Below, in pieces: positions 10,868-28,495 of a stretch of 64,000 nt of DNA. Source of the DNA: Escherichia coli (lineage in GTDB: Bacteria > Pseudomonadota > Gammaproteobacteria > Enterobacterales > Enterobacteriaceae); the NCBI RefSeq assembly GCF_003991155.1, contig NZ_CP031293.1, one strand, 5' to 3'. The position numbers and the translations under genes are program-made. Each line of letters starts with the position of its first letter. Position 1 is the stretch's first letter. A model generated the notes under the pieces. That model was not told the origin of the DNA and did no database searches. It saw nothing but the letters and a program-made list of their open reading frames with translations.

Positions 10868-11099
10868 TAGCAATACTCTTCTGATTTTGAGAATTGTGAC
10901 TTTGGAAGATTGTAGCGCCAGTCACAGAAAAATGTGATGGTTTTAGTGCCGTTAGCGTAATGTTGAGTGTAAACCCTTAGCGCAGTGAAGCATTTATTAG
11001 CTGAACTACTGACCGCCAGGAGTGGATGAAAAATCCGCATGACCCCATCGTTGACAACCGCCCCGCTCACCCTTTATTTATAAATGTACTACCTGCGCT

Positions 11100-11385: not shown

Positions 11386-11391
11386 GTAGTT

Positions 11392-12741
11392 ATGTCTGAA
11401 ATTGTTGTCTCCAAATTTGGCGGTACCAGCGTAGCTGATTTTGACGCCATGAACCGCAGCGCTGATATTGTGCTTTCTGATGCCAACGTGCGTTTAGTTG
11501 TCCTCTCGGCTTCTGCTGGTATCACTAATCTGCTGGTCGCTTTAGCTGAAGGACTGGAACCTGGCGAGCGATTCGAAAAACTCGACGCAATCCGCAATAT
11601 CCAGTTTGCCATTCTGGAACGTCTGCGTTACCCGAACGTTATCCGTGAAGAGATTGAACGTCTGCTGGAGAACATTACTGTTCTGGCAGAAGCGGCGGCG
11701 CTGGCAACGTCTCCGGCGCTGACAGATGAACTGGTCAGCCACGGCGAGCTGATGTCGACCCTGCTGTTTGTCGAAATCCTGCGCGAACGCGATGTTCAGG
11801 CACAGTGGTTTGATGTACGTAAAGTGATGCGTACCAACGACCGATTTGGTCGTGCAGAGCCAGATGTAGCCGCGCTGGCGGAACTGGCCGCGCTGCAGCT
11901 GCTCCCACGCCTCAATGAAGGCTTAGTGATCACCCAGGGATTTATCGGTAGCGAAAATAAAGGTCGGACAACGACGCTTGGCCGTGGAGGCAGCGATTAT
12001 ACGGCAGCCTTGCTGGCGGAGGCTTTACACGCATCTCGTGTTGATATCTGGACCGACGTCCCGGGCATCTACACCACCGATCCACGCGTGGTTTCCGCAG
12101 CAAAACGCATTGATGAAATCGCGTTTGCCGAAGCGGCAGAGATGGCAACTTTTGGTGCAAAAGTACTGCATCCGGCAACGTTGCTACCCGCAGTACGCAG
12201 CGATATCCCGGTCTTTGTCGGCTCCAGCAAAGACCCACGCGCAGGTGGTACGCTGGTGTGCAATAAAACTGAAAATCCGCCGCTGTTTCGCGCGCTGGCG
12301 CTTCGTCGCAATCAGACTCTGCTCACTTTGCACAGCCTGAATATGCTGCATTCTCGCGGTTTCCTCGCGGAAGTTTTCGGCATCCTCGCGCGGCATAATA
12401 TTTCGGTAGACTTAATCACCACGTCAGAAGTGAGCGTGGCATTAACCCTTGATACCACCGGTTCAACCTCCACTGGCGATACCTTGCTGACGCAATCTCT
12501 GCTGATGGAGCTGTCTGCACTATGCCGGGTAGAAGTGGAGGAAGGTCTGGCGCTGGTCGCGTTGATTGGCAATGACCTGTCAAAAGCCTGCGGCGTAGGC
12601 AAAGAGGTATTCGGCGTACTGGAACCGTTCAACATTCGCATGATTTGTTACGGCGCATCCAGCCATAACCTGTGCTTCCTGGTGCCCGGCGAAGATGCCG
12701 AGCAGGTGGTGCAGAAGCTGCATTTTAATTTGTTTGAGTAA
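11392..12741 (+). CDS. lysC: Lysine-sensitive aspartokinase III
   Basis: 449-aa ORF MSEIVVSKFGGTSVADFDAMNRSADIVLSDANVRLVVLSASAG... Confidence 0.97.
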   Translation: MSEIVVSKFGGTSVADFDAMNRSADIVLSDANVRLVVLSASAGITNLLVALAEGLEPGERFEKLDAIRNIQFAILERLRYPNVIREEIERLLENITVLAEAAALATSPALTDELVSHGELMSTLLFVEILRERDVQAQWFDVRKVMRTNDRFGRAEPDVAALAELAALQLLPRLNEGLVITQGFIGSENKGRTTTLGRGGSDYTAALLAEALHASRVDIWTDVPGIYTTDPRVVSAAKRIDEIAFAEAAEMATFGAKVLHPATLLPAVRSDIPVFVGSSKDPRAGGTLVCNKTENPPLFRALALRRNQTLLTLHSLNMLHSRGFLAEVFGILARHNISVDLITTSEVSVALTLDTTGSTSTGDTLLTQSLLMELSALCRVEVEEGLALVALIGNDLSKACGVGKEVFGVLEPFNIRMICYGASSHNLCFLVPGEDAEQVVQKLHFNLFE

Positions 12742-12753
12742 ACGATCAGTAGA

Positions 12754-12783
12754 GGTGAATAGCGACCCACGACGCTATTCACC
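12754..12783. repeat. Perfect 11-bp inverted repeat (GGTGAATAGCG ... CGCTATTCACC) at the lysC 3' end / island junction
   Basis: Seen directly; no adjacent T-run; could be lysC terminator stem or junction element. Confidence 0.5.
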
Positions 12784-12795
12784 ATGCCGGTTCAA

Positions 12796-13143
12796 TTACG
12801 AATTACTGCGGCGCTGTTGCTTTTCCGCATGTACGCGTTTCACAATCTTATAAATCCATTGCAGCGTCAGATTATATTTCTTCGCTAATTCGGCGTAGTT
12901 GCGCCCATCGCACTCGCTATAGATTTGGTAGTCACGCTCCGATGCTCGTCCGGAGATCCCCTTAGGGAAATAAATGCTTTGTCCGCCCCAGTTACGCATC
13001 ATTCGGTCGGCAATGGCAAAGCCCACATTTTCTGCCGATGAACTGTCGAGATTGATGCTTTCAATCAGAACTTGCGATGCATGAAAAGCCAGGTCGTTAA
13101 TGATCTCCGGTGTCCGGGCCATCTCTTTTGATTTTCGTATCAT
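12796..13143 (-). CDS. Mor/C-family (phage Mu middle/late) transcriptional activator
   Basis: 115-aa ORF; C-terminus GGQSIYFPKG...RDYQIYSECDGRNYAELAKKYNLTLQWIYKIVKR matches the conserved Mor/C HTH region (Mu Mor GGGQVYIPRG...RIWNDFNGRNVSELTTRYGVTFNTVYKAIRR); GGAG RBS 7 nt upstream. Confidence 0.8.
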   Translation of the reverse strand: MIRKSKEMARTPEIINDLAFHASQVLIESINLDSSSAENVGFAIADRMMRNWGGQSIYFPKGISGRASERDYQIYSECDGRNYAELAKKYNLTLQWIYKIVKRVHAEKQQRRSNS

Positions 13144-13364
13144 TTTTCATCTCCATATATCTTGCATCCTGAATAAGACCCGATGCGTGTAAAACCACGG
13201 ATATACGCTAAGCAGTTGTCATTACTGCTACTCAATACATTCAACAAACAAATAAACAATTAACAAAAATATAAATTTTTAATATTAATGAACGCCATAA
13301 ATTCATGAAATAGATATATTGTTTGCGTTATGTTTCTTGTCAACAGGTGTATCATTTTACACGA

Positions 13365-13384
13365 TACTGTATACACATACAGTA
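13365..13384. promoter_or_regulatory. LexA operator (SOS box) TACTGTATACACATACAGTA
   Basis: Matches consensus TACTGTATATATATACAGTA at 18/20 with both CTG/CAG half-sites perfect; flanked by inverted TTTTACAC / GTGTAAAA; overlaps a candidate plus-strand sigma-70 promoter (TTTACA-16-TACAGT). Confidence 0.7.
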
Positions 13385-13680
13385 TTATTTTTACTTGTAG
13401 TGTAAAAAGATCGTTTCCCTCACAGTCGCTGACTTTCTTAAACAAACTTTAAAAATCAAATAACTACTGACTATTCCTACGATTCACCATCATCTTTTCC
13501 CTGCATAATGACGCGCTTATTCGCGAGGTCACCTTTTGCTCTTTAATTGCTGAGTGGATTTATTAGCGGGCATGTTCATTTATAGAGAATCTATTTTTTA
13601 AACTTATTTATTAAAGCTTTTTTCATTCTTCACTGGCGGGTTCTGGCGACACTAAACGCTCACTTATCAGGAGATACCGT

Positions 13681-13968
13681 ATGAAAAAAGTCACTCTTCC
13701 CCGGCTTTCCGGTTGGCTGGTCGCTTCCGTCGCGCTGTTTGTCGTGATCGGCTGGACCTCTTCAGCACAAATCCCGGTCGTCATTTATAAACTAAGCCTG
13801 GTTTCGCTTTCCGCGGTGCTGGGATACTGGCTCGATCGCAGTTTGTTCCCCTGGGCACGGCCTGACTCTTTTTGCCCCTGGAAGGAACCGCGTTGCTGCG
13901 CGGCGGCAATGATTCGCCGGGCTATCATCGTTGCTGCCGTCTGCCTTTCCGTCGCGTTAGGGCTATAG
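13681..13968 (+). CDS. Putative holin-like small membrane protein (three predicted hydrophobic segments)
   Basis: 95-aa ORF with hydrophobic helices, immediately upstream of the endolysin gene; function inferred from position. Confidence 0.45.
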   Translation: MKKVTLPRLSGWLVASVALFVVIGWTSSAQIPVVIYKLSLVSLSAVLGYWLDRSLFPWARPDSFCPWKEPRCCAAAMIRRAIIVAAVCLSVALGL

Positions 13969-13970
13969 TG

Positions 13971-14576
13971 ATGTGGCTGAAATATATCGCGTCTATGATT
14001 ATTTTCGTTCTTTTCCCACTCAACGCCTCTGAACCGCCGAGAGCCTCTCTGGCATGGCGAAACGAACTAATTCGTACAGCTCGAGAAGTCTGGGGGCTGA
14101 ATGCCCCAGTGGCCGACTTTGCCGGGCAATTACACCAGGAGTCCGCCTGGCAGCCAATGGTACGTTCCCCCGTTGGCGCACAAGGTATGGCGCAATTTAT
14201 GCCTGCTACAGCGACATGGATAAGCCAGTTGTATCCACAATTGCGTGAAAACAAACCGTATAACCCAACCTGGGCGATTCGCGCGCTGGTGCAATATGAC
14301 CAGCATTTGTGGAAAAACATCTCTGCGAAAAATGATTGTCAGCGTATGGCGTTTACCCTAAGCGCCTATAACGGCGGTCAGGGGTGGGTTAACCGGGATA
14401 AAAAACTGGCTGCATCCAAAGGGTTAGATGCCACTAGCTGGTTTGGTCATGTTGAGCAAGTCAACGCCGGGCGCAGCGCCACGAACTGGCGAGAAAATCG
14501 TCGCTATCCAAAGATGATCCTCTATCAACATGCCGCCCGCTATTTACTCTGGGGACAGGCAAGCTGTCTTCATTAA
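13971..14576 (+). CDS. Endolysin, lytic transglycosylase (SLT domain) with hydrophobic N-terminus (signal or SAR-like)
   Basis: Motifs HQESAW and GAQGMAQFMPATA typical of the SLT catalytic region; start taken at the internal ATG at 13971 just after the upstream ORF stop. Confidence 0.8.
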   Translation: MWLKYIASMIIFVLFPLNASEPPRASLAWRNELIRTAREVWGLNAPVADFAGQLHQESAWQPMVRSPVGAQGMAQFMPATATWISQLYPQLRENKPYNPTWAIRALVQYDQHLWKNISAKNDCQRMAFTLSAYNGGQGWVNRDKKLAASKGLDATSWFGHVEQVNAGRSATNWRENRRYPKMILYQHAARYLLWGQASCLH

Positions 14577-14588
14577 TCAGAGGGGCCG

Positions 14589-14903
14589 ATGAAACTCAGT
14601 ATCGATTTTTGGGAAGTGATCTCCCTTATGCTTTCCTTCGTTGGATTAATGTTTGCTGCCGGAAAACTGCTGTTAGCACAAATTGAAAAACGACTTAATG
14701 AGCGTTTTGAATCTCTGGAAAACGCGCGCCGGGAATCAGAAACAAGTTGGTCGAAACTGGAAAGAGAATTTCTCGAATTTCGTGCCGAGCTTCCGCTGCA
14801 TTATGTCCGCAGAGAAGATTATCTTCGTGGGCAAGCAGTATTAGAAGCGAAGCTGGATGCCTTATATAGCAAAATCGAGCTGTTACAACGTGGCAGTTAT
14901 TGA
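14589..14903 (+). CDS. Putative spanin-like lysis accessory protein (N-terminal TM helix plus coiled coil)
   Basis: 104-aa ORF, N-terminal hydrophobic segment followed by charged coiled-coil-like sequence; position after endolysin. Confidence 0.4.
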   Translation: MKLSIDFWEVISLMLSFVGLMFAAGKLLLAQIEKRLNERFESLENARRESETSWSKLEREFLEFRAELPLHYVRREDYLRGQAVLEAKLDALYSKIELLQRGSY

Positions 14904-14904
14904 A

Positions 14905-14941
14905 AAATCCCCACCCTTATGTAAGGGTGGGGATTTTTTTA
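14905..14941 (+). terminator. Strong rho-independent terminator (ATCCCCACCCTTatgtAAGGGTGGGGAT plus T7) between lysis cassette and tail genes
   Basis: 12-bp perfect stem followed by TTTTTTT; A-run on the other side makes it bidirectional. Confidence 0.7.
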
Positions 14942-15047
14942 ACCATTCAATTTTTTCTCTAAATCACATTAAAAGATTCTTCACCTTCGCTGCTTCAGAA
15001 TACATTTCAACGATAACGAAGTGAGCGGTAATTAAGGTACAGCCTAT

Positions 15048-15503
15048 ATGGAAATTTTATCTGTAATGAATTCTGTTGTGACCAGATTACGTGAACACAA
15101 CTCCGAAATGGATATATTTATTTCATCTAAGGATGCCCAGAAATATATTCCACAGACACAACGAGTTGCAGTGATTATTAATTATAGCGGTTCTGTCTTT
15201 GCTACGCCCGAAAGCAGTAATGCCATCGTGCAACAGCAAATACTCCGCTTAACCGCCACCGTTATTGTTGGCAAAAATTGTGATGCATTAAACGCACTTG
15301 ATCACATACGCAGCGCATTGGGTGGCCTTCAGCTTCCTGATTGCGATCGTCTTCTTTGGCTTGAAAAAGAAATTAATACGGGTGAGAGCGGCGGTTTCTG
15401 CCGCTACATCCTGGAAATGGCGACCAGCTCGCTATTTATCGCTGAACAGGAAAGCACGGATCTTCCCCTGCTTACGGAAGTTAACTACGAGGAAACTGAA
15501 TGA
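15048..15503 (+). CDS. Hypothetical tail-associated protein (first gene of tail operon; possibly tail completion/terminator)
   Basis: 151-aa ORF translationally coupled (ATGA) to the next ORF; role inferred only from position upstream of sheath. Confidence 0.5.
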   Translation: MEILSVMNSVVTRLREHNSEMDIFISSKDAQKYIPQTQRVAVIINYSGSVFATPESSNAIVQQQILRLTATVIVGKNCDALNALDHIRSALGGLQLPDCDRLLWLEKEINTGESGGFCRYILEMATSSLFIAEQESTDLPLLTEVNYEETE

Positions 15504-15697
15504 AATACATCTACAACGGCCCAGCAAGCGGCGTCACCCTTGCCGATGGACAAGAAATCTTATTGTGGCCGAACAGTGAAATTGATCTGCCAGAAGACAA
15601 CGAGTGGGTCATGACCATGATTGCCCGCAATCATCTGACTCCTGTCATCACTCAGGAAGAACAAAATAACGTAGAGGAAATTGTACATGGCAGCTAA
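15500..15697 (+). CDS. Small hypothetical protein (65 aa) preceding tail sheath
   Basis: ORF overlapping neighbours at both ends; typical of small conserved proteins upstream of Mu-like sheath genes. Confidence 0.4.
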   Translation: MKYIYNGPASGVTLADGQEILLWPNSEIDLPEDNEWVMTMIARNHLTPVITQEEQNNVEEIVHGS

Positions 15698-17111
15698 TTA
15701 TCTGCACGGTGTAGAAACTATTGAAATTGAAACCGGCCCGCGTCCGGTTAAAGCGGTAAAATCCGCCGTCATCGCTTTAATCGGTACAGCCCCCTGCGGT
15801 CCGGTAAATAAACCAACATTATGCCTTTCTGAAAGCGATGCTGCGCAGTTTGGCTCGACTCAGGCTAACTTTACGATCCCACAGGCACTGAAGGCAATTT
15901 ATGACCACGGTGCCGGTACGGTGGTGGTGATTAACGTGCTGGATCCGGCAAAACATGGCTCCAACATCAGCAATGAGAGTATCACTTTTGATGCTAACAA
16001 CCAGGCGAAGCTCGCTCACCGCAATGTGCGTAACGTGGTACTAAAGCCCTCTTCATCAAATTCATCAACCTTTAACACCGCAGCATTTAGCGTAGATGAA
16101 CAAACAGGCATAATTACCCGTAAAGGAGCCGACATTCCTCCTGGTGCGAAAGTTTGTGCCTATTATTCCTGGTGCGACCCTACAAAGGTCACCGCAGCCG
16201 ATATTATCGGTACCGTAAATACCGCAGGCGACCGCACGGGGATGAAACTGCTACAGGACACCTATAACCTGTATGGTTTCTACGCCAAAATCCTGCTTGC
16301 TCCCGTGTTCTGTACGCAAAAATCAGTAACTACAGAGCTGATTGCACAAGCGGAAAAACTTGGTGCGATTACCTACATTGATGCCCCGATTGGGACGACA
16401 TTCCAGCAGGTATTGGCAGGACGCGGTTCGCAAGGGGCTATCAACTTCAACACCAGCTCTGATCGTGCGCGTTTATGTTACCCACACGTCAAAGTTTACG
16501 ATGGCATCACTAACCAGGAAGTTCTCGAACCGCTCTCTTCGCGCGCTGCCGGGCTACGTGCCAAAGTAGACCTCGAAAAAGGTTTCTGGTGGAGCAACTC
16601 AAACCAAGAAATTCAGGGTATTACCGGTATTGAACGTTCGCTTTCCGCAATGATTGATGATCCACAAAGCGAAGTGAATCAGCTAAACGAAAACGGCATT
16701 ACCACTATTTTCAATAGTTACGGCTCTGGTCTGCGCTTGTGGGGCAACCGCACTGCAGCGTGGCCTACCGTGACCCATATGCGTAACTTTGAAAACGTCC
16801 GCCGGACAGGCGATGTAATTAATGAGTCAATCCGTTATTTCAGTCAGCAGTATATTGATATGCCGATTAATCAGGCGCTGATTGATGCCCTGACCGAATC
16901 GGTAAATACCTGGGGCCGTAAGCTGATTGCCGACGGCGCACTGCTTGGCTTTGAATGCTGGTACGATCCGGCGCGAAATTCACCGACTGAACTCAGCGCT
17001 GGGCATTTATTGCTGAGCTATAAATTCACCCCACCGCCGCCGCTGGAACGTCTGACGTTTGAAACTGAAATTACTTCTGAATATTTAGTCTCTCTGGAGA
17101 GCAATAGCTAA
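15687..17111 (+). CDS. Contractile phage tail sheath protein
   Basis: About 474-aa ORF starting MAANYLHGVETIEIETGPRPV...; size and N-terminal motif typical of Mu gpL / P2 FI-type sheath proteins; RBS GAGGAAA upstream of the ATG at 15687. Confidence 0.85.
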   Translation: MAANYLHGVETIEIETGPRPVKAVKSAVIALIGTAPCGPVNKPTLCLSESDAAQFGSTQANFTIPQALKAIYDHGAGTVVVINVLDPAKHGSNISNESITFDANNQAKLAHRNVRNVVLKPSSSNSSTFNTAAFSVDEQTGIITRKGADIPPGAKVCAYYSWCDPTKVTAADIIGTVNTAGDRTGMKLLQDTYNLYGFYAKILLAPVFCTQKSVTTELIAQAEKLGAITYIDAPIGTTFQQVLAGRGSQGAINFNTSSDRARLCYPHVKVYDGITNQEVLEPLSSRAAGLRAKVDLEKGFWWSNSNQEIQGITGIERSLSAMIDDPQSEVNQLNENGITTIFNSYGSGLRLWGNRTAAWPTVTHMRNFENVRRTGDVINESIRYFSQQYIDMPINQALIDALTESVNTWGRKLIADGALLGFECWYDPARNSPTELSAGHLLLSYKFTPPPPLERLTFETEITSEYLVSLESNS

Positions 17112-17635
17112 TGGCTGGAAAAATTCAAATTAACCGTATTACCAACGCCAATATTTATCTCGATGGTAATAACCTTTTAGGTCGTGCAACCGAAATTAAA
17201 TTGCCGGATGTCAGTTTAATTATGCAGGAGCATAAAGCACTGGGCATGGTGGGTAAAATCGAACTCCCGGCGGGTTTCGATAAACTGGAGGGCGAAATTA
17301 AATGGAACTCCTTCTATCAGGACGTAATGCGTAAAACGGCAAACCCGTGGCAGGCGGTTGCATTACAGTGCCGCTCCAGTATTGATTGCTATAACTCCCA
17401 GGGGAAAGCGAATCAATTAGCGCTAGTGACACATTTAACCGTGATGTTTAAAAAGAATCCACTGGGCACATTTAAACAGAATGAAAACCCGGAATTCAGC
17501 AGCGCCTTTGGTTGCACTTATATTAAACAAGTAGTTGATGGTGAAACGCTGCTTGAACTTGATTATATGGCCAATATTTTCCGGGTTAATGGTGTGGATC
17601 AATTAAGTACCTATCGCAATAACATCGGTGGCTAA
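17111..17635 (+). CDS. Phage tail tube protein
   Basis: 174-aa ORF directly following sheath (TAATG overlap); sheath-tube order conserved in contractile tails. Confidence 0.8.
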   Translation: MAGKIQINRITNANIYLDGNNLLGRATEIKLPDVSLIMQEHKALGMVGKIELPAGFDKLEGEIKWNSFYQDVMRKTANPWQAVALQCRSSIDCYNSQGKANQLALVTHLTVMFKKNPLGTFKQNENPEFSSAFGCTYIKQVVDGETLLELDYMANIFRVNGVDQLSTYRNNIGG

Positions 17636-17685
17636 GTTATTCGGGGCTACGGCCCCGAACTTTGCAAAATAAATAAGGACACAAA

Positions 17686-18003
17686 ATGAAAGAACATTAT
17701 ATCTTACAGTTCCCGTTTACTTCAGCGGCGGGAGACGTAATTAACACTCTGCAATTACGTCGCCTGAAAGTAAAAGATATGCGCAACGCGCGCCGGATCA
17801 GCGAAAAACCTGAAGAGTGGGATGAACCGCTAATGGCGGCAATGACCGGACTGGTGCCAGAAGATTTAGCTGAAATGGATTTGCTGGATTACCAGGCATT
17901 GCAGAAACGATTTCAATCCATGCTTAGCGTGGCTACAGAATCCGCCACTGTTATGGCAAGCGATGGCGTTACTGGCGAGATGGTTTCGCTTTCCACCCAG
18001 TGA
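17686..18003 (+). CDS. Putative tail assembly chaperone (gpE-like position)
   Basis: 105-aa acidic ORF between tube and tape measure genes. Confidence 0.5.
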   Translation: MKEHYILQFPFTSAAGDVINTLQLRRLKVKDMRNARRISEKPEEWDEPLMAAMTGLVPEDLAEMDLLDYQALQKRFQSMLSVATESATVMASDGVTGEMVSLSTQ

Positions 18004-18192
18004 GATAGACGCCCTTACCGTCGATGACTTTAGCAACTGGCTGGATGAAGCCAGCGCCCAAATAAAAATCGAATATGACTCGCAGACCTGATGTCTGCGA
18101 GTTTCCCAAGCCCGTCAGGTTTATTTCTTCCCTGCCCCTTTTTTTAGAAAAATAACCAGCGGGCCATTATCAATATTTAAAGAGAAACAATT

Positions 18193-20568
18193 TTGGCCAA
18201 CGATATTATTACCCAGCTTCAGGCGCGTAATGAGACGTTGACGCAGGCAATAGCCCGTTACGGCTCACTCAACGCCAGAACATTGTTAACTCTCTCTACT
18301 CAGCAGGCGACAGTTATCAAACTAACGCAGCAGCTTGCCGATTCCGCTCTCCGCCTGGAGGAAAATAGCCGCAGCCGCGCTAATCTGATGGAGAAAACCC
18401 AAACATTTGCCGGGCAATTTAGCAAAGTATTCAATGTTGAAGCCCCCGACTGGAAGTTGCCGTATGAGTTTCAGGACAACATGGTCAATATGGCGACCAA
18501 AGGTGGGATGAATGCTACAACCCGCGAGACGCTCAGCCTTAATCTGCGCGACTGGAGCATGGATTTTAACCAGCAGCAGACCACCTTACAGAACGCAGCC
18601 CAAACGCTGATCGAAGGCAATTTGTCGTCGATACAGGATCTCAACCGTTATATGCCGGAGATCGCCAAAGCTGCCACCGCCACGCGCGAAAGTGCTGAAA
18701 CATGGGCGAATGCCGCGCTCGCAACCCATGATCGACTGAATATTGCCCCGGAAAATTTCCACGCCGCGCAAAACATGATGTACGGCATTAGCAAAAGCGG
18801 TGGGCCTGCCATTGCTGAACAAACGCAGTGGATAGAGAAATTTGCAGGTAAAACCGGCGCTCAGGGTCTGGAAGGTATGGCTGAACTGACCGCCACCATG
18901 CAGATCGCCATGAAAAACGGGGCCAGCGCCAGTGCGGCGGCGGAGAATTTCGACCACTTTCTGCAAACCACCTTTTCGAAAAAAACCGATTACTGGTTCG
19001 TCAGCCAGGGCGTTGATCTGCAAGGCTCTCTGCTTGAGCATCAGCAAAACGGTATGGGTGTTAGCGAAGCCATGACTCATATCGTGCAAATGCAGCTTGA
19101 GAAGATGAATCCGGCGATCCTCGACACCTTCAAACGCACCATGCAGATCGAAGATTTATCTGCCCGCAGCAATGCGCTGCAATCGATGGTGACGCAGTTT
19201 AATCTGGGGGAAATGTTCGGCGATGCGCAAACAGTGGAATTCCTGGCCCCTATGCTGGCGAATATGGAGGAATATCGCCAGTTAAAAGCCTCTGCCATGC
19301 AAGCCACCAGCAAGAATCTGATTGATGCCGACTTTTCTGCGCAAATGGCCTCGCCCATTGAACAGACTAAAGCGTTACAGCTGGCGTTAAATGATTTATG
19401 GCTCAGCATTGGCTTGCAATTAATGCCGCTGATTGGCGAGCTGGCACAAAGCCTTACGCCGGTTATTCGTCAGTTCAGCGCCTGGCTACGTGAGCACCCG
19501 ACACTGGTGCAAAACATCGCGAAAATCGTCGGGGCGATTTGGCTGTTTAACGGTGCGCTGAATGTTTTAAAGCTGGGCGCGAACCTCATCACCTCGCCGT
19601 TTATTCGTCTGGTCGATATCTTCCTGAAAGTCAAGGCAAGTCTGGCGCTCACAGGCGGGGCAAGTAAGATGCTATCAGCGGTTAAGTCATTGGGTGGCGG
19701 CGCAAAATGGCTAACGCAACTGCTTGGTCGTGGCCTGATTGGAACATTGAAACTGGTTGGTCGGACCGTTCTCTCACTAGGCCGGGTGCTACTGATGAAT
19801 CCCATTGGTCTGGTCATCACTGCGATTGCGGGCGCTGCTTATCTGATTTATCGCAACTGGGAGCCTATCTCCAGGTTCTTTTCGACCATCTGGCAACGTA
19901 TCACCACGGCCTTTGACGGCGGCATTGCAGGAATTTGTCGGTTGATTCTCGACTGGTCACCGCTGGAGTTGTTCTATAGCGCCTTTTCCAGTGTGATGAA
20001 TTGGTTTGGTGTCGAGATGCCTGCAAGTTTTAGCGAGTTCGGCAGCAATCTTCTGGGCAGTCTGGTTGACGGCATAATGAATGCCTTCCCCGCTCTGAAA
20101 GGCATTATTGATCAGGTAAAAAACGCCATCCCAGACTGGCTAAAAACCACGATGGGTATTAGTACAGAAGGATCGGCTACAGCTATTACAAGCACGACTA
20201 ATACCGCATCCGTCTCCCCCGCGACCGTTGTTCCAGGCGTTGCCGGTGCGATTTTAACGCCGCCGGTGGGCAAACAACTCGCGCCATCCGGCAAAACGGC
20301 TACGCCGTCATCGGCGCCAGCGGCAAAAAATACAGCCGCCAAACCCGTATCTGCCTCTTTACCTGGTAAATCCGTAACCAAAGCGGCGACGCTACCTTCC
20401 CGTTCCTCAGGAAAAGTTCAGGTGAATTTTTCGCCACAAATTACCGTGCAGGGTAACGGACAAAACACCACTAAAGAGATTCAGAACGTGTTGACGATGA
20501 GTAAACGCGAACTGGAAAGAATGATTAACGATGTAATGGCGCAGCAGCAGCGCCGGGGGTATGCCTAA
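18193..20568 (+). CDS. Tail tape measure protein
   Basis: 791-aa ORF, alpha-helical and Ala/Gln-rich with central hydrophobic segments; position after chaperone; start codon uncertain (TTG at 18193 in track). Confidence 0.8.
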   Translation: MANDIITQLQARNETLTQAIARYGSLNARTLLTLSTQQATVIKLTQQLADSALRLEENSRSRANLMEKTQTFAGQFSKVFNVEAPDWKLPYEFQDNMVNMATKGGMNATTRETLSLNLRDWSMDFNQQQTTLQNAAQTLIEGNLSSIQDLNRYMPEIAKAATATRESAETWANAALATHDRLNIAPENFHAAQNMMYGISKSGGPAIAEQTQWIEKFAGKTGAQGLEGMAELTATMQIAMKNGASASAAAENFDHFLQTTFSKKTDYWFVSQGVDLQGSLLEHQQNGMGVSEAMTHIVQMQLEKMNPAILDTFKRTMQIEDLSARSNALQSMVTQFNLGEMFGDAQTVEFLAPMLANMEEYRQLKASAMQATSKNLIDADFSAQMASPIEQTKALQLALNDLWLSIGLQLMPLIGELAQSLTPVIRQFSAWLREHPTLVQNIAKIVGAIWLFNGALNVLKLGANLITSPFIRLVDIFLKVKASLALTGGASKMLSAVKSLGGGAKWLTQLLGRGLIGTLKLVGRTVLSLGRVLLMNPIGLVITAIAGAAYLIYRNWEPISRFFSTIWQRITTAFDGGIAGICRLILDWSPLELFYSAFSSVMNWFGVEMPASFSEFGSNLLGSLVDGIMNAFPALKGIIDQVKNAIPDWLKTTMGISTEGSATAITSTTNTASVSPATVVPGVAGAILTPPVGKQLAPSGKTATPSSAPAAKNTAAKPVSASLPGKSVTKAATLPSRSSGKVQVNFSPQITVQGNGQNTTKEIQNVLTMSKRELERMINDVMAQQQRRGYA

Positions 20569-21521
20569 TGTATGCCGTTTTAGGAGAGATTGAATTTAAG
20601 GTTGTCACATTCTGGGACGGCTTTAAAAGCACAATGGGCGTGGATTACGCCACACATGCCCGTATAGAAGGCAAACCCGGCGTGCAGTTTATTGGCGATA
20701 AGCTGGATATGCTGGCGCTGGAATTTTCCCTGCACAGCCAGTTTTGCCAGCCCACAACAGAGCTGAACCGACTGCGTGAAGCCATGCTTGCTCACAAGGC
20801 GATGGCACTGGTATTTGGCAATGGCGATTATCGCGGCTGGTTTGTGATTACGGAGCTAACCGCCACCCACCAGCACACCGATCCCTGGGGCAATGTGATT
20901 GCCCAAAACGGAACGATGTCGCTCCAGGAGTACACCGGCGATCCTAAAAATCCACTTTTACCTCCGGCGATTACCACCCAGGAGCCCAACATCGAGGAAA
21001 AGGCGAGCGATTTTCCCGACAAGGTGGAGTCCTGGTTTGATCAGATATTAAACGCCATTGAAGAAGGTATGCGTAAGGCCAAAGAGATGCTGGATGAACT
21101 GACACAATCCATTGAAGATATTAAAAAAACGGTGGCAAAAGTGAAAGCAATGATTAAAGAGGCCAAAGCGTTAAAAGAAAAGTGTGAAAAGATAATTACG
21201 TCATTGAAAAAGACAATCGACGCCATCGAAACCCTGTTTAAACAGCCAATGGATCTGCAAACGCTGGCAGGCCTACCAAAAGCGTTGTCGGCGCAGATTA
21301 AAGCTTTACTGGGTAACATGCCAGGTATCCGGGACTGCGCCAATGACGCCAGTACGCTGGTTGACCATGCTCAGGCGCTTTTCGACGACATTACCAGCGA
21401 CATCGCCGAAGCGACGTTCGATAAAGCCACGTCGTTGGTTGAGCAGGCACGTACAACGGTACAACAAACCACTCCCGCAGTGAGCCAGCTTGCTGCCGTA
21501 ACCATTACCAGGAGCTGGTAA
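20568..21521 (+). CDS. Tail protein, P2 gpU-like N-terminal domain with coiled-coil C-terminal extension
   Basis: N-terminal region (ARIEGKPGVQFIG...WFVITELTATHQHT) resembles the P2 gpU / Mu N N-terminal family; overlaps TMP stop. Confidence 0.7.
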   Translation: MYAVLGEIEFKVVTFWDGFKSTMGVDYATHARIEGKPGVQFIGDKLDMLALEFSLHSQFCQPTTELNRLREAMLAHKAMALVFGNGDYRGWFVITELTATHQHTDPWGNVIAQNGTMSLQEYTGDPKNPLLPPAITTQEPNIEEKASDFPDKVESWFDQILNAIEEGMRKAKEMLDELTQSIEDIKKTVAKVKAMIKEAKALKEKCEKIITSLKKTIDAIETLFKQPMDLQTLAGLPKALSAQIKALLGNMPGIRDCANDASTLVDHAQALFDDITSDIAEATFDKATSLVEQARTTVQQTTPAVSQLAAVTITRSW

Positions 21522-21730
21522 TGCGATACCTTGAACATATCACCACCGATGGCGAACGCTGGGATAACCTGGCATGGCATTACTACGGTGATGCGCTGGC
21601 TTATGAACGCATAATCGCCGCCAATCCACATGTAGCCATTTACCCGGTACTGCCTTCCGGTATTCAGCTCATTATTCCGGTCATTTCCGTTAATAAAACC
21701 TTATCGGAGATCCCACCATGGCTGAGATGA
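21521..21730 (+). CDS. Tail protein X-like (small LysM-like tail protein)
   Basis: 69-aa ORF with AANP...LP.G pattern as in P2 gpX; located between U-like and D-like genes as in R-type pyocin clusters. Confidence 0.7.
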   Translation: MRYLEHITTDGERWDNLAWHYYGDALAYERIIAANPHVAIYPVLPSGIQLIIPVISVNKTLSEIPPWLR

Positions 21731-22758
21731 GCGTAACTGGTGGCGTCTTTGCCACACTCACGCCCATTTTTACCCTCTGGTATGGGCATAAAGATATCAC
21801 TTATGACATCACACCCTATGTCACCAGCATCAGTTACCACGACAGCATCAAAAACGAGTCGGATACCATCGCAATTACACTGGATGACACAGATGGACGC
21901 TGGATAAAAGAGTGGTATCCCGGCAAAGGCGATACGCTGGCGCTGCATATAGGTTATCAGGGGGAAAAGCTGCTCGATTGTGGCCAGTATATTATTGATA
22001 AAATTGATATTTCAGCGCCACCTTCCACGGTAAATATTGATGGCATCGCCACTTCCGTCAATCAGGCGCTGCGCACCCGTAACAGCCAGGGCTTTGAAGA
22101 AACGACGCTTTCGGCGATCGCCAGCCGTATTGCCCAAACGCACGGTCTGAAACTGGTGGGCAAAATCGAGTCGCTCACCATCGACCGGGTAACGCAGTAT
22201 GGTGAAACCGATGTCGGATTTCTCAAACGTCTGGCCAGTGAATATGGTTATGCCGTAAAAGTGACGACAAAAGAGCTGATTTTTTCACATTTACCCACGC
22301 TGCGCTGCCTGACGCCTGTGAAAAAGATCGATCGCAAAGAGGTTTCTCATTTTACCTTCAAAGACACCATTAACCGGATCTACAAGAACGCCACCGTACA
22401 GCATCAAAATAGTAAGAAAAAAGAACTGGTTATCTACACTCACAACAGCCAGCAAAAACCATCTGTCCGTGGAGTCGGCACTAGTGCCGACACGCTAAAA
22501 CTGAACAGTCGGGCGACGGACGTTGGCGCAGCACAGGCAAAGGCTAACGCTGCACTCGACAGCCACAACGAATATCAGCAAACCGGAACGCTCACAATGA
22601 TGGGCTGCCCGGAACTGACGGCGGGCAATAAAATTGAACTGACCGATTTTGGCGTGATTTCCGGTCAGTGGCTGATTGATAAATCTACTCACAGTTTTGT
22701 GCGCAGCGGCTATACCACTGAAATCGACGTGTCACGCGGGCCAGCGACCAGCCAGTAA
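21718..22758 (+). CDS. Phage late control D-like / Mu gpP-like tail (baseplate hub) protein
   Basis: 346-aa ORF in the conserved U-X-D position. Confidence 0.75.
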   Translation: MAEMSVTGGVFATLTPIFTLWYGHKDITYDITPYVTSISYHDSIKNESDTIAITLDDTDGRWIKEWYPGKGDTLALHIGYQGEKLLDCGQYIIDKIDISAPPSTVNIDGIATSVNQALRTRNSQGFEETTLSAIASRIAQTHGLKLVGKIESLTIDRVTQYGETDVGFLKRLASEYGYAVKVTTKELIFSHLPTLRCLTPVKKIDRKEVSHFTFKDTINRIYKNATVQHQNSKKKELVIYTHNSQQKPSVRGVGTSADTLKLNSRATDVGAAQAKANAALDSHNEYQQTGTLTMMGCPELTAGNKIELTDFGVISGQWLIDKSTHSFVRSGYTTEIDVSRGPATSQ

Positions 22759-22767
22759 GGAGGAAAT

Positions 22768-23469
22768 ATGAAAGGAGTAACCCGTCAAACGGGGATTATC
22801 AGCGATATTGACGAAACCAGTGTTCGGGTACGGGTCACTCTACCAGAGTGTGACAATCTGAAGAGCAACTGGCTTGCGGTACTTCAACGCAATTCCCAGG
22901 ACAATAAAGACTACTGGCTACCGGATATGGGCGAGCAAGTGGAAGTTCTGCTGGACGATAACGGTGAAGATGGCGTGGTGCTGGGTGCCGTTTATTCTAC
23001 GGTTGACACCGCGCCTGTAGCCTCGCGCGACAAACGTTACGTCCAGTTTTCTGATGGCGCAGCGTTTGAATATGACCGCAGCACGCACCAGCTGACGATT
23101 AACGGCGGTATCGAGAAAATCGTGATTGAGGTTATCGACAGCACCCGCCTGACATCGCCCAACGTTGAGATTAAAGCCCAACACGTCACCGTGACTTCCG
23201 ATACCGTCGATGTTAAAGCGACCGATGTCAGCATCGACGCCACTAAGGTCGAGGTTAAAGCAGCAGCAGTGACGGTAGATGCGCCCATGAGCACCTTTAC
23301 TGGCAACGTCACGGTAATGAAAAAACTCACCTGGCTTGGCGGGATGGCAGGAAGTGGAGGCATCGGTAACGCAGCCACGATAACCGGCAATGTCAACGTG
23401 ATCGGCAACGTTCAGGCCAGCGGCGCATTGCAGGACAGCGGTGGCAACTCCAACCACCATTCACACTGA
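22768..23469 (+). CDS. Baseplate assembly protein V-like (central spike)
   Basis: 233-aa ORF; N-terminal OB-fold-like region and C-terminal repetitive beta region (VTVTSDTVDVKATDVSIDATKVEVKAAAVTVDA) typical of gpV spikes. Confidence 0.8.
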   Translation: MKGVTRQTGIISDIDETSVRVRVTLPECDNLKSNWLAVLQRNSQDNKDYWLPDMGEQVEVLLDDNGEDGVVLGAVYSTVDTAPVASRDKRYVQFSDGAAFEYDRSTHQLTINGGIEKIVIEVIDSTRLTSPNVEIKAQHVTVTSDTVDVKATDVSIDATKVEVKAAAVTVDAPMSTFTGNVTVMKKLTWLGGMAGSGGIGNAATITGNVNVIGNVQASGALQDSGGNSNHHSH

Positions 23470-23472
23470 CTT

Positions 23473-23505
23473 TTAACCCGCCTGATGGCGGGTTTTCTCT
23501 TTTTA
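23473..23505 (+). terminator. Hairpin (AACCCGCCtgatGGCGGGTT) plus T-rich tract after the spike gene; possible partial intra-operon terminator
   Basis: Perfect 8-bp stem followed by TTCTCTTTTT. Confidence 0.5.
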
Positions 23506-23567
23506 ATCAATCAGTTTTCTAAATCGCTTTAATATCTCCACAGCCCGTTCAGGGCGAAAATACCCTC

Positions 23568-23927
23568 ATGAACACAAAAACACGCCCCTCAACGCTGCAC
23601 TGGCAACCGGCCTTGCAGCGGCCTGAAGAATACGTCTGCGGGCTGGATGATATTCACCAGGCAATACACATCATTCTGCGTACACCGCGCGGCAGTGATC
23701 CCCACAGACCGCTGTTTGGCAGCAACTTGTGGCACTACATCGATTACCCCATCGAGCGGGCTATCCCGCATGTGGTACGGGAGTCGGTGGAAGCCATCCG
23801 CCAGTGGGAACCGCGCTGTCGGTTGCTGAAGGTGACACCAGTAATCGACGGCGAACATCTGACGTTACGTGTGCAATGGCGCGCCGCTGACGGCGTTATC
23901 AACTCAACGGAGGTGTTATGGCGATAG
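23568..23927 (+). CDS. Baseplate wedge protein gpW / gp25-like
   Basis: 119-aa ORF; PRGSDPHRPLFGSNLWHYIDYP resembles the GPW_gp25 family core. Confidence 0.75.
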   Translation: MNTKTRPSTLHWQPALQRPEEYVCGLDDIHQAIHIILRTPRGSDPHRPLFGSNLWHYIDYPIERAIPHVVRESVEAIRQWEPRCRLLKVTPVIDGEHLTLRVQWRAADGVINSTEVLWR

Positions 23928-25033
23928 CCGAACCCAATTTTATTGACCGCGATCCTGCGCAAATTACCAGTGAGATGATTGCGCAATACGAAGATGCCAG
24001 TGGTAAAAAACTCTATCCGGCACAGGCTGAGCGGTTGCTCATCGACCTGTTTGCCTATCGTGAAAACCTTGTACGCATCGCCATTCAGGAAGCGGCGAAA
24101 CAAAACCTGGTCGCGTATTCCCGCGCGCCAATGCTGGATTATTTAGGGGAGTTGGTGGGAGTTCACCGTTTGCCTGCGCAGCCTGCAAAAACGACGTTGC
24201 AGTTTTCGGTCGTTAGTGCGTATCCCGGCAATATCCTGATTCCCCAGGGGACGCGGGCCAGTGCCTCTGATAGCGTGATGTTCGCCACCGATGAAGATGT
24301 TCTGCTTCCGGCCAGGAGTTTGCATATCGCCGTTCCTGCCACCAGCCTCGCAGCAGGTGAACAGGGTAACGGCTGGCAGCCTGCACAAATTAGCGCACTG
24401 GTCGACAGGATTGGTCATTATGACATCAACGTAACCAACCTGACTGCGTCAACGGGCGGCTGCGGTGAAGAGAGCGATGACGCATTGCGCCAGCGTATCC
24501 AACTGGCACCAGAAAGCTTTAGTAATGCGGGCAGCTATGGTGCCTACCGCTTTCATACGCTTTCTGTTAGCCAGTCGATTATTGACGTTGCAGTACTGGG
24601 GCCGGACGAGGGATTGCCAGAAGGCTGCGTGGAGATCTACCCGCTAACCCTGAATGGTCTACCCGGCACGGAGTTGCTGGCGCAGATTGAACAAGAAGTC
24701 AGCAAGGAGAAAAAACGACCGCTGACCGACAAAGTGAGTGCGAAATGCGCTCTTCGAGTGCCGTATGAGATCCGTGCGCAGCTAATGCTGTTTACCACCG
24801 CCGATCAGGAGACAACGCTGGCTGCGGCGCGTAAAGCGATTAGCCTCTGGACGCAACAGCGGCAGAAACATCTGGGGCAGGACATTGTGCCAAACCAGAT
24901 AATCAAAGTGTTACAGGTCGATGGCGTCTATGACGTTGCGCTGAATATGCCTACAAAACGTATTTTGCAGGCGCATGAATGGGCGGAATGCACTGCAATA
25001 GACGTCACGATTGCCGGAGTCAGCGATGGATAA
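23918..25033 (+). CDS. Baseplate protein J-like
   Basis: 371-aa ORF after gpW with GGAGG RBS; W-J-I order. Confidence 0.8.
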   Translation: MAIAEPNFIDRDPAQITSEMIAQYEDASGKKLYPAQAERLLIDLFAYRENLVRIAIQEAAKQNLVAYSRAPMLDYLGELVGVHRLPAQPAKTTLQFSVVSAYPGNILIPQGTRASASDSVMFATDEDVLLPARSLHIAVPATSLAAGEQGNGWQPAQISALVDRIGHYDINVTNLTASTGGCGEESDDALRQRIQLAPESFSNAGSYGAYRFHTLSVSQSIIDVAVLGPDEGLPEGCVEIYPLTLNGLPGTELLAQIEQEVSKEKKRPLTDKVSAKCALRVPYEIRAQLMLFTTADQETTLAAARKAISLWTQQRQKHLGQDIVPNQIIKVLQVDGVYDVALNMPTKRILQAHEWAECTAIDVTIAGVSDG

Positions 25034-25742: not shown

Positions 25743-25744
25743 TA

Positions 25745-28481: not shown

Positions 28482-28495
28482 AATAACGCCGGGCA

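What the first reader, a model, noticed from the sequence alone, without database searches (positions are those of the whole stretch)
17686..18192. Chaperone-tape measure junction: 190-bp gap with a 30-codon open frame running past the chaperone stop (possible programmed frameshift product)
Contractile-tail chaperone genes commonly produce a C-terminally extended form by programmed frameshifting. Here a +1-frame ORF is open from about 17870 through 18088 and continues 30 codons beyond the chaperone stop, but the -1 frame closes immediately and I see no canonical slippery heptamer, so this is only a weak candidate.
Basis: inference. Interest (0 to 1): 0.2.

Follow-up and report, generated by a model that had tools for sequence, protein, structure and literature searches.

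The report
Conserved +1 frameshift in tail chaperone
The small tail-assembly chaperone gene of an E. coli phage-tail cluster almost certainly makes a second, longer protein when ribosomes slip forward one base at a strictly conserved CGA-UUU-C site. This is the usual two-protein trick of phage tails, done with an unusual and currently unannotated shift signal.

Summary
The chaperone gene (17686-18003, Pfam PF10109) is followed by a 189-nt apparent gap. A +1-frame ORF is open from 17870 to 18088, the -1 frame closes at 18006, and there is no X_XXY_YYZ heptamer.

- In 93 related loci (E. coli, Salmonella/Enterobacter-type, Pectobacterium, PhiKM, BcepMu, several Betaproteobacteria), the same +1 frame encodes a conserved peptide related to P2 gpE' (PF06528).
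- The phase of nucleotide variation switches from frame 0 to frame +1 at codons 75-77.
- The only sequence common to all loci in the permitted interval is in-frame TTT_C. It is preceded by invariant CGA in 48 of 53 distinct junctions, although CGA is a rare Arg codon. The other five read TCC/TCT/GTG_TTT_CGN, which resembles influenza PA-X.
- Relatives whose extension lies in the -1 frame carry classical heptamers about three codons downstream.

Best explanation: +1 slippage of tRNA-Phe from UUU to UUC (17911-17914). It yields a 134-aa, 15.6-kDa gpE+E'-like fusion alongside the 105-aa chaperone. AlphaFold models the fusion confidently, with one helix running through the junction.

This is not shown experimentally, and the efficiency is unknown. 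It is a new variant of a known kind, of moderate interest.

The parts
17686..18003 (+). Tail assembly chaperone, short form (gpE/gpG analogue), 105 aa, 11.8 kDa, read in frame 0.
   Evidence: ORF listed. PF10109 Phage_TAC_7 E=4e-18, 65.7 bits, residues 6-80. PGAP names it 'phage tail assembly protein'. AlphaFold: residues 1-84 folded, tail 85-105 at pLDDT below 50.
17908..17916 (+). Proposed shift-site context CGA_UUU_CAA: the codons in the E, P and A sites at the moment of the shift.
   Evidence: CGA_TTT_C is invariant in 48 of 53 distinct junction sequences while neighbouring codons vary synonymously. Nucleotide entropy is zero at 17908-17913. CGA makes up 5 of 102 Arg codons in the window's tail genes.
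17911..17914 (+). Slippery tetranucleotide UUU_C, where tRNA-Phe re-pairs from UUU to UUC (+1).
   Evidence: It is the only element shared by all 93 loci that carry the +1-frame extension. It is the only codon between 17870 and 17962 with same-tRNA +1 re-pairing potential. In 15 loci a +1-frame stop lies three codons upstream, which sets the 5' bound. An invariant Trp six residues downstream sets the 3' bound.
17915..18091 (+). +1-frame extension (gpE'-like), 58 codons plus the TGA stop at 18089-18091. Joined to residues 1-76 it gives a 134-aa, 15.6-kDa fusion protein.
   Evidence: Conserved peptide F..(C/Y)L.W...P..LW....LLARWFRF(P/Q)PSEID.L..DF..W..EA..QIK.E in 49 distinct variants. PF06528 Phage_P2_GpE is hit by 14 of 19 variants, best E=2e-5; the window's own sequence scores 18.5 bits against a cut-off of 23. 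hhalign to P2 E+E' residues 102-135 gives E=1e-4. AlphaFold pLDDT 84-94.
17915..18003 (+). Dual-coding overlap: the frame-0 tail of the short form and the +1-frame start of the extension.
   Evidence: Variable sites move from frame-0 position 3 to frame-0 position 1, which is +1-frame position 3. Counts are 24:64 upstream against 17:11 in the overlap (Fisher p=0.0027). In Pectobacterium-type loci they are 7:25 against 12:3 (p=0.0003).
18077..18103 (+). Stable 11-bp hairpin (GACTCGCAGAC ctgat GTCTGCGAGTT) enclosing the stop codon of the extension. Its function is unknown.
   Evidence: In the 18060-18200 fold the hairpin is the first of two predicted stems; that 141-nt stretch scores z=-3.25. 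In 13 enterobacterial variants 97.9% of cells are paired, with one A-U to G-C compensatory pair. A different hairpin sits at the same place in the betaproteobacterial loci.
18092..18192 (+). Non-coding spacer that remains between the extension stop and the tape measure start.
   Evidence: No Rfam match. No terminator-like or promoter-like site on the + strand.
18193..20568 (+). Tape measure protein gene, the presumed client of the chaperone pair.
   Evidence: 791-aa ORF. PF10145. PGAP names it 'phage tail tape measure protein'.
17111..17635 (+). Tail tube gene immediately upstream, which supplies the synteny context (tube - chaperone - tape measure).
   Evidence: PF04985 E=3.7e-56. PGAP annotation.

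Best explanation
The chaperone gene is decoded in two ways. Most ribosomes read frame 0 to the TGA at 18001-18003 and make the 105-aa chaperone. A minority shift +1 at CGA_UUU_C (17908-17914). With tRNA-Phe (anticodon GAA) on UUU in the P site, the tRNA re-pairs with the overlapping UUC, and decoding continues at AAU (17915) to the TGA at 18089. The result is a 134-aa fusion, ...ALQKRF|NPCLAWLQNPPLLWQAMALLARWFRFPPSEIDALTVDDFSNWLDEASAQIKIEYDSQT.

This is the counterpart of P2 gpE+E' and lambda gpGT. The shared N-terminal domain would bind the tape measure protein, and the extension would recruit tube subunits. A fixed low ratio of long to short form would be set by the shift efficiency.

The strictly conserved rare CGA is read by tRNA-Arg(ICG) through a weak I:A wobble. 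It probably stimulates the shift in one of two ways: as a weakly held E-site codon, or, as in Ty3, by distorting the P site so that tRNA-Phe binds UUC directly. Both routes give the same protein.

Shown here: conservation of the +1 frame, the point where +1-frame constraint begins, the invariant motif, and homology to gpE'. Inferred: that the shift happens, its direction (+1 rather than -2), its efficiency, the role of CGA, and the assembly function.
For: (1) Synteny is sheath-tube-chaperone-tape measure, and the chaperone hits PF10109.
(2) The +1-frame peptide is conserved in all loci of this family that were recovered: 14 of 15 genome loci, about 75 viral-contig loci, and phages PhiKM, BcepMu, Ralstonia YO107_2 and Komp_PAO1_1. 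It matches PF06528 and P2 E+E' residues 102-135.
(3) Codon-phase switch at codons 75-78: upstream variation sits at frame-0 third positions and downstream variation at +1-frame third positions. Fisher p=0.0027 and 0.0003 in two independent clades.
(4) The shift interval is tightly bounded. A +1-frame stop lies three codons upstream of TTC in 15 loci, and an invariant Trp lies 4-6 residues downstream.
(5) Within that interval TTT_C is universal and CGA_TTT_C is invariant in 48 of 53 distinct junctions. Flanking codons vary synonymously, and CGA is only 5 of 102 Arg codons locally.
(6) Family members with the extension in the -1 frame carry T_TTT_TTA, T_TTT_TTG or G_GGA_AAG about three codons downstream of the equivalent Phe. 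P2's mapped site aligns there too.
(7) AlphaFold gives the fusion a mean pLDDT of 89.4 with helix 66-84 continuous across residue 76. The frame-0 tail 85-105 scores below 50.
(8) Literature: tail genes use -1, -2 or +1 shifts (PMC5009743). UUU_C is the proven +1 site of influenza PA-X, and a class of UUU_C sites with restricted E- and A-site codons was predicted (PMC3498833). CGA can substitute for the P-site codon in Ty3 +1 shifting (PMC5009743).
Against: There is no protein-level evidence of any kind.
- The A-site codon (CAA, CAG, CUG) is not rare and is not a stop, unlike classical bacterial +1 sites such as prfB.
- No conserved Shine-Dalgarno-like stimulator and no significant local RNA structure was found (z=-0.48). 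The efficiency may therefore be low and is unknown.
- The heptamer CGATTTC is not rare in the window (13 found, 12.7 expected), so the motif alone proves nothing.
- The window's own extension scores below the PF06528 gathering threshold (18.5 against 23 bits).
- Dual coding confounds any separate test of nucleotide-level constraint.
- The two AlphaFold runs used alignments of different depth (26 and 12 sequences).
Confidence: 0.8

Rival explanations
1. The gpE'-like peptide is made on its own by internal initiation at the +1-frame ATG at 17963, giving the 42-aa ORF 17963-18091. No frameshift is involved.
For: The ORF with an ATG exists. The Met is conserved in the Enterobacteriaceae-type loci as 'WQAMALL'. 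The Pfam PF06528 match starts exactly there.
Against: - There is no Shine-Dalgarno sequence upstream.
- The Met is absent in Pectobacterium ('WKAQALL') and in most betaproteobacterial loci.
- +1-frame constraint starts about 45 nt further upstream, at 17917, and includes an invariant Trp at fusion residue 82.
- The homologous P2 product is a fusion.
- AlphaFold models a continuous helix through the junction.
Confidence: 0.05
2. The long form is made by a -2 frameshift, as in phage Mu gp41, which reaches the same frame with one extra residue.
For: Mu is the precedent in a contractile-tail chaperone (PMC5009743). Its site, CGG_GGG_CGA, is visible in L017. A -2 shift and a +1 shift enter the same frame.
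Against: There is no G or U run like those in Mu or the arteriviruses. The conserved feature is UUU followed by C, which favours forward re-pairing.
Confidence: 0.03
3. A frameshift does occur, but at another position in the overlap, for example CUU_A at 17923-17926 or further downstream towards 17960.
For: CTT_A is the only other same-amino-acid +1 re-pairing candidate. Accidental fusions at about 17944 give an ORF of the same length.
Against: CTT is not conserved: it is CTC in some loci and GTG, CTG or TTG in the betaproteobacterial loci. +1-frame residues upstream of it (P-C-L, and the Trp) are already conserved. The phase switch sits at codons 75-78. The fused ORFs are contractions of a C run, in assemblies two of which (L104, L106) also have split tube genes.
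Confidence: 0.07
4. The shift to the +1 frame is made at the RNA level, by transcriptional slippage that deletes a base, rather than by the ribosome.
For: Some bacterial genes reach alternative frames this way (PMC5009743).
Against: Known slippage needs homopolymer runs of roughly six or more bases. The longest run here is T3.
Confidence: 0.02

Closest known systems
Phage P2 gpE / gpE+E' (essential tail proteins; -1 frameshift at T_TTT_TTG)
   Same: The position between tube and tape measure genes is the same. The N-terminal family is the same (PF10109). The extension is homologous: PF06528, and hhalign E=1e-4 to P2 residues 102-135. The geometry is alike, with 17 residues from the shift to the conserved motif here against 19 in P2.
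   Different: The direction of the shift is +1, not -1. The signal is CGA_UUU_C, not a heptamer. The site lies three codons earlier. The overlap with the short form is 29 codons, against about 6 in P2.
Phage Mu gp41 tail chaperone, -2 frameshift at CGG_GGG_CGA
   Same: It is a contractile-tail chaperone whose extension lies in the +1/-2 frame. Gene order from the tape measure protein through the baseplate genes is Mu-like.
   Different: Mu re-pairs tRNA-Gly two bases back on a G run. No such run exists here. The Mu extension shows no evident similarity to the GpE' motif.
Influenza A PA-X +1 frameshift site UCC_UUU_CGU
   Same: Both have UUU_C as the P-site slippery tetranucleotide and a strictly conserved E-site codon. 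The minority variants in this family (TCC_TTT_CGC, TCT_TTT_CGT) are nearly identical to the PA-X site (PMC3498833).
   Different: This is a bacterial system. In the window the conserved flanking codon is the 5' CGA, and the A-site codon is a common one. The resemblance is convergent, not due to homology.
Phage lambda gpG / gpGT (-1 at G_GGA_AAG)
   Same: The functional logic is the same: a chaperone and a frameshift-extended chaperone encoded just before the tape measure gene. One relative in this family, Pasteurella phage AFS-2018a, even carries G_GGA_AAG.
   Different: There is no sequence similarity to gpG or gpT. Lambda has a non-contractile tail and shifts in the -1 direction.
E. coli prfB (RF2) +1 frameshift, CUU_UGA with an upstream Shine-Dalgarno sequence
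   Same: [quoted passage not shown]
   Different: Here there is no stop or slow codon in the A site, no conserved Shine-Dalgarno-like stimulator, and no autoregulatory logic.

Membership tests
Frameshift-extended tail assembly chaperone pair (lambda G/GT, P2 E/E+E' paradigm) | The gene lies between the tail tube (major tail) gene and the tape measure gene. | tested here: met
   Tube 17111-17635, chaperone 17686-18003, tape measure 18193-20568.
Frameshift-extended tail assembly chaperone pair (lambda G/GT, P2 E/E+E' paradigm) | A second ORF in another frame overlaps the 3' part of the chaperone gene, lacks its own conserved start, and is conserved in relatives. | tested here: met
   The +1 ORF is open 17870-18088. 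It is conserved as protein in 93 loci. There is no conserved start codon.
Frameshift-extended tail assembly chaperone pair (lambda G/GT, P2 E/E+E' paradigm) | A conserved shift-prone sequence lies inside the overlap. | tested here: met
   TTT_C is universal and CGA_TTT_C is found in 48 of 53 distinct junctions. It sits at the point where the codon phase switches.
Frameshift-extended tail assembly chaperone pair (lambda G/GT, P2 E/E+E' paradigm) | Two proteins with a common N-terminus are made in a fixed ratio, both are needed for tail assembly, and neither is in the finished tail. | not testable with these tools
   This needs expression, mass spectrometry and genetics.
Pfam PF10109 Phage_TAC_7 | Score above the gathering threshold. 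| tested here: met
   65.7 bits against a cut-off of 25.
Pfam PF06528 Phage_P2_GpE (the E' extension) | Score above the gathering threshold. | tested here: inconclusive
   The window sequence scores 17.8-18.5 bits against a cut-off of 23. 14 of 19 relatives hit at E<=0.01, best 2e-5. Profile against P2 E+E' gives E=1e-4, probability 58%. BLASTP gives E=7e-4.
P2-type -1 frameshift | An X_XXY_YYZ heptamer and an open -1 frame. | tested here: not met
   No heptamer in any frame, and a -1-frame stop at 18006.
Mu-type -2 frameshift | The P-site tRNA can re-pair two bases upstream (G run followed by a rare codon). | tested here: not met
   There is no run, and UUU would land on GAU and CGA on AAC.
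UUU_C class of +1 frameshift sites (PA-X type) | An in-frame UUU followed by C, with a conserved E-site codon. | tested here: met
   CGA_UUU_C, with relatives carrying UCC_ or UCU_UUU_CGN.
UUU_C class of +1 frameshift sites (PA-X type) | [quoted passage not shown] | tested here: not met
   The A-site codon is CAA, CAG, CUG, CUC or CUU in the CGA class.
UUU_C class of +1 frameshift sites (PA-X type) | Direction and site proven by sequencing the trans-frame peptide. | not testable with these tools
   Requires mass spectrometry.
R-type tailocin (headless contractile tail bacteriocin) | A contractile-tail and lysis gene cluster without capsid, packaging, replication or integration genes. | tested here: met
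   PGAP annotation of the identical IAI39 locus between lysC and yjbD. The IMG/VR relatives are 13-18-kb tail-only contigs.
R-type tailocin (headless contractile tail bacteriocin) | Particles are produced and kill related strains. | not testable with these tools
   Requires induction, electron microscopy and killing assays.

The most novel reading that the evidence does not exclude
CGA_UUU_C may be a previously unrecognised, evolutionarily conserved bacterial +1 programmed-frameshift signal that needs neither a stop or hungry A-site codon, nor a Shine-Dalgarno stimulator, nor RNA structure. The stimulation would come instead from the I:A-wobble codon CGA immediately 5' of the slippery UUU_C. 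It would be interchangeable in evolution with the PA-X-like UCY_UUU_CGN, and with classical -1 heptamers at the same place in the same protein family. This would be the bacterial realisation of the UUU_C class predicted by Firth et al. (2012).
Probability: 0.45. Interest if true: 0.6.

Novelty: new variant of a known kind. Interest (0 to 1): 0.45.

Why it matters
- **Annotation.** The long form is missing from RefSeq/PGAP annotation of this locus, which is present in 194 of 5,426 complete E. coli genomes. It is also missing or mis-joined in related phage records such as BcepMu gp41-43. A simple rule fixes a whole family: PF10109 gene, in-frame TTT_C at the end of the domain, and a +1 ORF with the PSEID motif.
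- **Recoding biology.** One protein family solves the same problem with -1 heptamers, with CGA_UUU_C, or with UCY_UUU_CGN at the same position. That is a natural experiment on what makes a +1 site work in bacteria, and it points to a testable role for the I:A-wobble codon CGA.
- **Tailocin engineering.** Anyone re-coding or codon-optimising these clusters (carotovoricin-type or E. coli tailocins) would destroy the site, because CGA and TTT are exactly what optimisation removes. That would probably abolish tail assembly.

Tried and rejected
- **Canonical -1 heptamer search.** None found in any frame.
- **RNA stimulator near the site.** The fold of 17890-18010 is no better than shuffled sequence, z=-0.48. 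There are no Rfam hits at 17500-18400.
- **Shine-Dalgarno-like stimulator.** AAGGAG lies 3 nt upstream in one betaproteobacterial lineage (L014), but it is not conserved.
- **NCBIfam.** No model matches the extension.
- **PDB.** Sequence search and Foldseek with the AlphaFold model found nothing meaningful, so no solved relative exists.
- **Naturally fused 134-aa ORFs (P0023, P0025).** I hoped these would mark the junction. They turned out to be CCCC-to-CCC contractions downstream of the site, and two of the three assemblies (L104, L106) also have broken tube genes, so they are uninformative.
- **Frequency of CGATTTC in the window.** Equal to chance. The in-frame census is too small to test avoidance.
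- **Phase-switch test in the betaproteobacterial clade.** Saturated, p=0.19.
- **Codon usage from the betaproteobacterial flanks.** Unreliable, because long spurious ORFs in GC-rich DNA were included.
- **Literature.** Searches for carotovoricin or tailocin plus frameshift returned nothing relevant. Xu et al. 2004 and the BcepMu paper are not in the library. I therefore cannot exclude that the +1 arrangement of BcepMu-like chaperones was discussed there.

Full report
**What is at the coordinates**

The window is E. coli DNA, 100% identical to IAI39, CE10 and other genomes over 17600-18300. The finding sits in a contractile-tail gene cluster ordered as follows:
- sheath, 15681-17111
- tube, 17111-17635
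- a 105-aa ORF, 17686-18003
- a 189-nt apparent gap
- tape measure protein, 18193-20568
- homologues of gpU, X, D, V, W, J and I, then fibre genes

The 105-aa ORF is a PF10109 tail assembly chaperone (65.7 bits). The +1 frame has stops only at 17867 and 18089. The -1 frame stops at 18006. No X_XXY_YYZ heptamer exists in any frame. The +1 ORF runs about 28 codons past the chaperone stop rather than 30. With the extension counted, the real spacer is 101 nt (18092-18192).

**Is the +1 ORF real coding sequence?**

Its C-terminal half weakly matches PF06528, the Pfam family built on the frameshift-encoded E' part of P2 gpE+E' (17.8 bits, below the cut-off of 23). I therefore collected relatives:
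- 15 loci from one-genome-per-species contigs
- 79 loci from IMG/VR
- several phage records: BcepMu, PhiKM, Ralstonia YO107_2, Komp_PAO1_1 and Pasteurella AFS-2018a, with Mu and P2 as references

In every locus of this family the frame +1 relative to the chaperone encodes a conserved peptide. This holds for Escherichia, Superficieibacter, Phytobacter, Salmonella/Enterobacter-type contigs, Samsonia, Pectobacterium, Undibacterium, Pandoraea, Ralstonia, Burkholderia and Pseudomonas phage. The consensus is F..CL.W...P..LW....LLARWFRF(Q/P)PSEID.L..DF..W..EA..QIK.E, in 49 distinct variants.

Homology to gpE' is supported three ways. Fourteen of 19 variants hit PF06528, best E=2e-5. The profile aligns to residues 102-135 of P2 gpE+E' at E=1e-4. 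The predicted fusion aligns to the same P2 stretch by BLASTP at E=7e-4.

**Where does the +1 reading begin?**

Four independent lines converge on codons 75-77.

(a) *Phase of variation.* In 23 distinct enterobacterial sequences with the window's geometry, variable sites in codons 2-74 lie mostly at frame-0 third positions (24, 14 and 64 sites at positions 1, 2 and 3). Codons 75-76 (CGA TTT, 17908-17913) show no variation at all. From codon 78 onward variation moves to frame-0 first positions, which are +1-frame third positions (17, 9, 11; Fisher p=0.0027). Thirty-one Pectobacterium-type sequences show the same switch (7:25 against 12:3, p=0.0003). The betaproteobacterial set is too saturated to test.

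(b) *5' bound.* In 15 loci the +1 frame carries a stop only three sense codons upstream of the TTC.

(c) *3' bound.* A Trp four to six residues after the Phe is invariant in all aligned extensions, BcepMu included.

(d) *Invariant motif.* Inside this interval of about eight codons, the only feature common to all 93 loci is an in-frame TTT followed by C. Among 53 distinct junctions the sites are:

| Site | Count |
|---|---|
| CGA_TTT_CAG | 18 |
| CGA_TTT_CAA | 16 |
| CGA_TTT_CTG | 12 |
| CGA_TTT_CTC | 1 |
| CGA_TTT_CTT | 1 |
| TCC_TTT_CGC | 2 |
| TCT_TTT_CGT | 2 |
| GTG_TTT_CGG | 1 |

. The flanking codons vary synonymously (TAT/TAC, GCA/GCG/GCC, TTG/CTG/CTA, CAG/CAA, AAA/AAG). CGA never varies, yet it accounts for only 5 of 102 Arg codons in the window's tail genes.

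**Independent support from relatives that shift the other way**

Some family members have the extension in the -1 frame. They carry classical heptamers about three codons downstream of the equivalent Phe:
- GAT_TTT_TTA (L016)
- GGT_TTT_TTA (L093)
- GGT_TTT_TTG (L097)
- G_GGA_AAG (Pasteurella phage)

P2's mapped -1 site, GGT_TTT_TTG, aligns to the same place. The end of the chaperone's last helix is thus the family's shift point, and the direction of the shift has changed during evolution.

**Mechanism**

tRNA-Phe (anticodon GAA) pairs better with UUC than with UUU. UUU_C is the experimentally proven +1 site of influenza PA-X, UCC_UUU_CGU, and its authors predicted a wider class of UUU_C sites with restricted E- and A-site codons (PMC3498833).

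I therefore propose +1 P-site slippage at 17911-17914. CGA is read by tRNA-Arg(ICG) through an I:A wobble. It could stimulate the shift as a weakly held E-site codon. Alternatively it could act as in Ty3, where CGA can replace the P-site codon (PMC5009743), by promoting out-of-frame binding of tRNA-Phe to UUC. Both routes give the same 134-aa, 15.6-kDa protein, compared with 11.8 kDa for the short form.

Transcriptional slippage is unlikely on a T3 run. Internal initiation at ATG 17963 does not fit either: the Met is not conserved outside the Enterobacteriaceae type, there is no Shine-Dalgarno sequence, and +1 constraint begins 45 nt upstream.

No RNA structure or Shine-Dalgarno-like stimulator is evident, and the A-site codon is ordinary. 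I expect low efficiency, consistent with the low long-to-short ratios known for lambda and Mu (PMC5009743, PMC3498833). This expectation is inference.

**Structure predictions**

AlphaFold models the fusion with a mean pLDDT of 89.4 and pTM of 0.76. Helix 66-84 runs straight through the junction at residue 76, and the extension scores 84-94. In the short form, residues 1-84 are confident and the frame-0 tail 85-105 scores below 50. This matches the weak constraint on that tail. The two alignments differ in depth (26 and 12 sequences). No solved structure resembles the model.

**The rest of the 'gap'**

An 11-bp hairpin at 18077-18103 encloses the stop codon of the extension. The fold of 18060-18200 that contains it, together with a second predicted stem, scores z=-3.25. 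The hairpin is kept in 13 enterobacterial variants, with 97.9% of cells paired and one A-U to G-C compensatory change. Betaproteobacterial loci have a different hairpin at the same place. It has no U tract, and I cannot assign it a function.

**Context**

PGAP annotation of the identical IAI39 locus shows, between lysC and yjbD:
- a Mor-family activator
- a holin and a lytic transglycosylase
- tail genes only, with no capsid, terminase, replication or integrase genes

The IMG/VR relatives are 13-18-kb tail-only contigs. The cluster therefore looks like an R-type tailocin. Its Pectobacterium relatives are probably the carotovoricin locus; that link rests on my memory and was not tested here. 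PGAP annotates only the short chaperone.

**Novelty and caveats**

Frameshift-extended tail chaperones are textbook, and +1 and -2 variants are known. What appears new is the specific, deeply conserved CGA_UUU_C signal in this PF10109/PF06528 lineage and its interchange with PA-X-like and -1 sites. Searches of the open literature found no description of it. Two key subscription papers, Xu et al. 2004 and the BcepMu genome paper, were not available, and the BcepMu record itself already hints at slippage. Everything here is comparative. No protein evidence exists.

Noticed in passing
window ~10,900-28,500: The whole cluster between lysC and yjbD is tail-only. It holds a Mor activator, ClbS/DfsB, an ISEc53 insertion (about 12,120-13,340), a holin, a lytic transglycosylase, and genes from sheath through fibre. 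There are no head, packaging, replication or integrase genes, so it looks like an R-type tailocin. The chaperone/tape-measure junction is present in 194 of 5,426 complete E. coli genomes. The closest non-enterobacterial relatives are in Pectobacterium and may be carotovoricin-type, which is from memory.
   Followed up: partly
window 18077-18103: An 11-bp hairpin (GACTCGCAGAC ctgat GTCTGCGAGTT) encloses the stop codon of the +1 extension. It is conserved in enterobacterial relatives with one compensatory A-U to G-C pair. Betaproteobacterial loci have an unrelated hairpin at the same spot. It has no U tract and its function is unknown.
   Followed up: partly
window 18001-18003: The frame-0 stop TGA is embedded in the +1-frame codons AGT GAG, the Ser-Glu of the invariant PSEID motif. 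Ser is therefore always AGT, and the short form ends at the same place in nearly all loci. In three loci (L042, L043, L074) frame 0 stops about 20 codons earlier while the +1 frame stays intact.
   Followed up: partly
window 20568-21521: The gpU homologue is 317 aa. PF06995 covers residues 6-123, followed by about 190 residues that hit many coiled-coil families weakly. That is about twice the length of P2 gpU.
   Followed up: no
L104-L106 (equivalent to window ~17944-17947); proteins P0023, P0025: Some public assemblies encode a single 134-aa 'fused' chaperone. The cause is a CCCC-to-CCC contraction downstream of the shift site. In two of the three assemblies the tube gene is also split, which suggests assembly errors or decay rather than a natural constitutive fusion.
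   Followed up: yes
L018 (BcepMu NC_005882, 24602-25363): The record annotates gp42 (+1 frame) and gp43 as the slippage pair. The sequence instead fits gp41 shifting +1 at TCC_TTT_CGC into the gp42 frame, which carries the PSEI motif. The GenBank annotation is probably mis-joined.
   Followed up: partly
window ~28,496-30,420, minus strand: A nucleotidyltransferase-domain gene and a slipin-family gene sit directly after the last tail-fibre-region gene, on the opposite strand. They may be cargo or defence genes of the element.
   Followed up: no
L005-L015, L044-L047, L080-L092 (downstream of the extension stop): The spacer between the extension stop and the first start codon opening an ORF longer than 250 aa is about 100 nt in E. 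coli and Salmonella-type loci. It is about 215 nt in Pectobacterium and 240-300 nt in betaproteobacterial and L044-type loci. I did not check whether a small gene or a mis-called tape measure start explains the difference.
   Followed up: no
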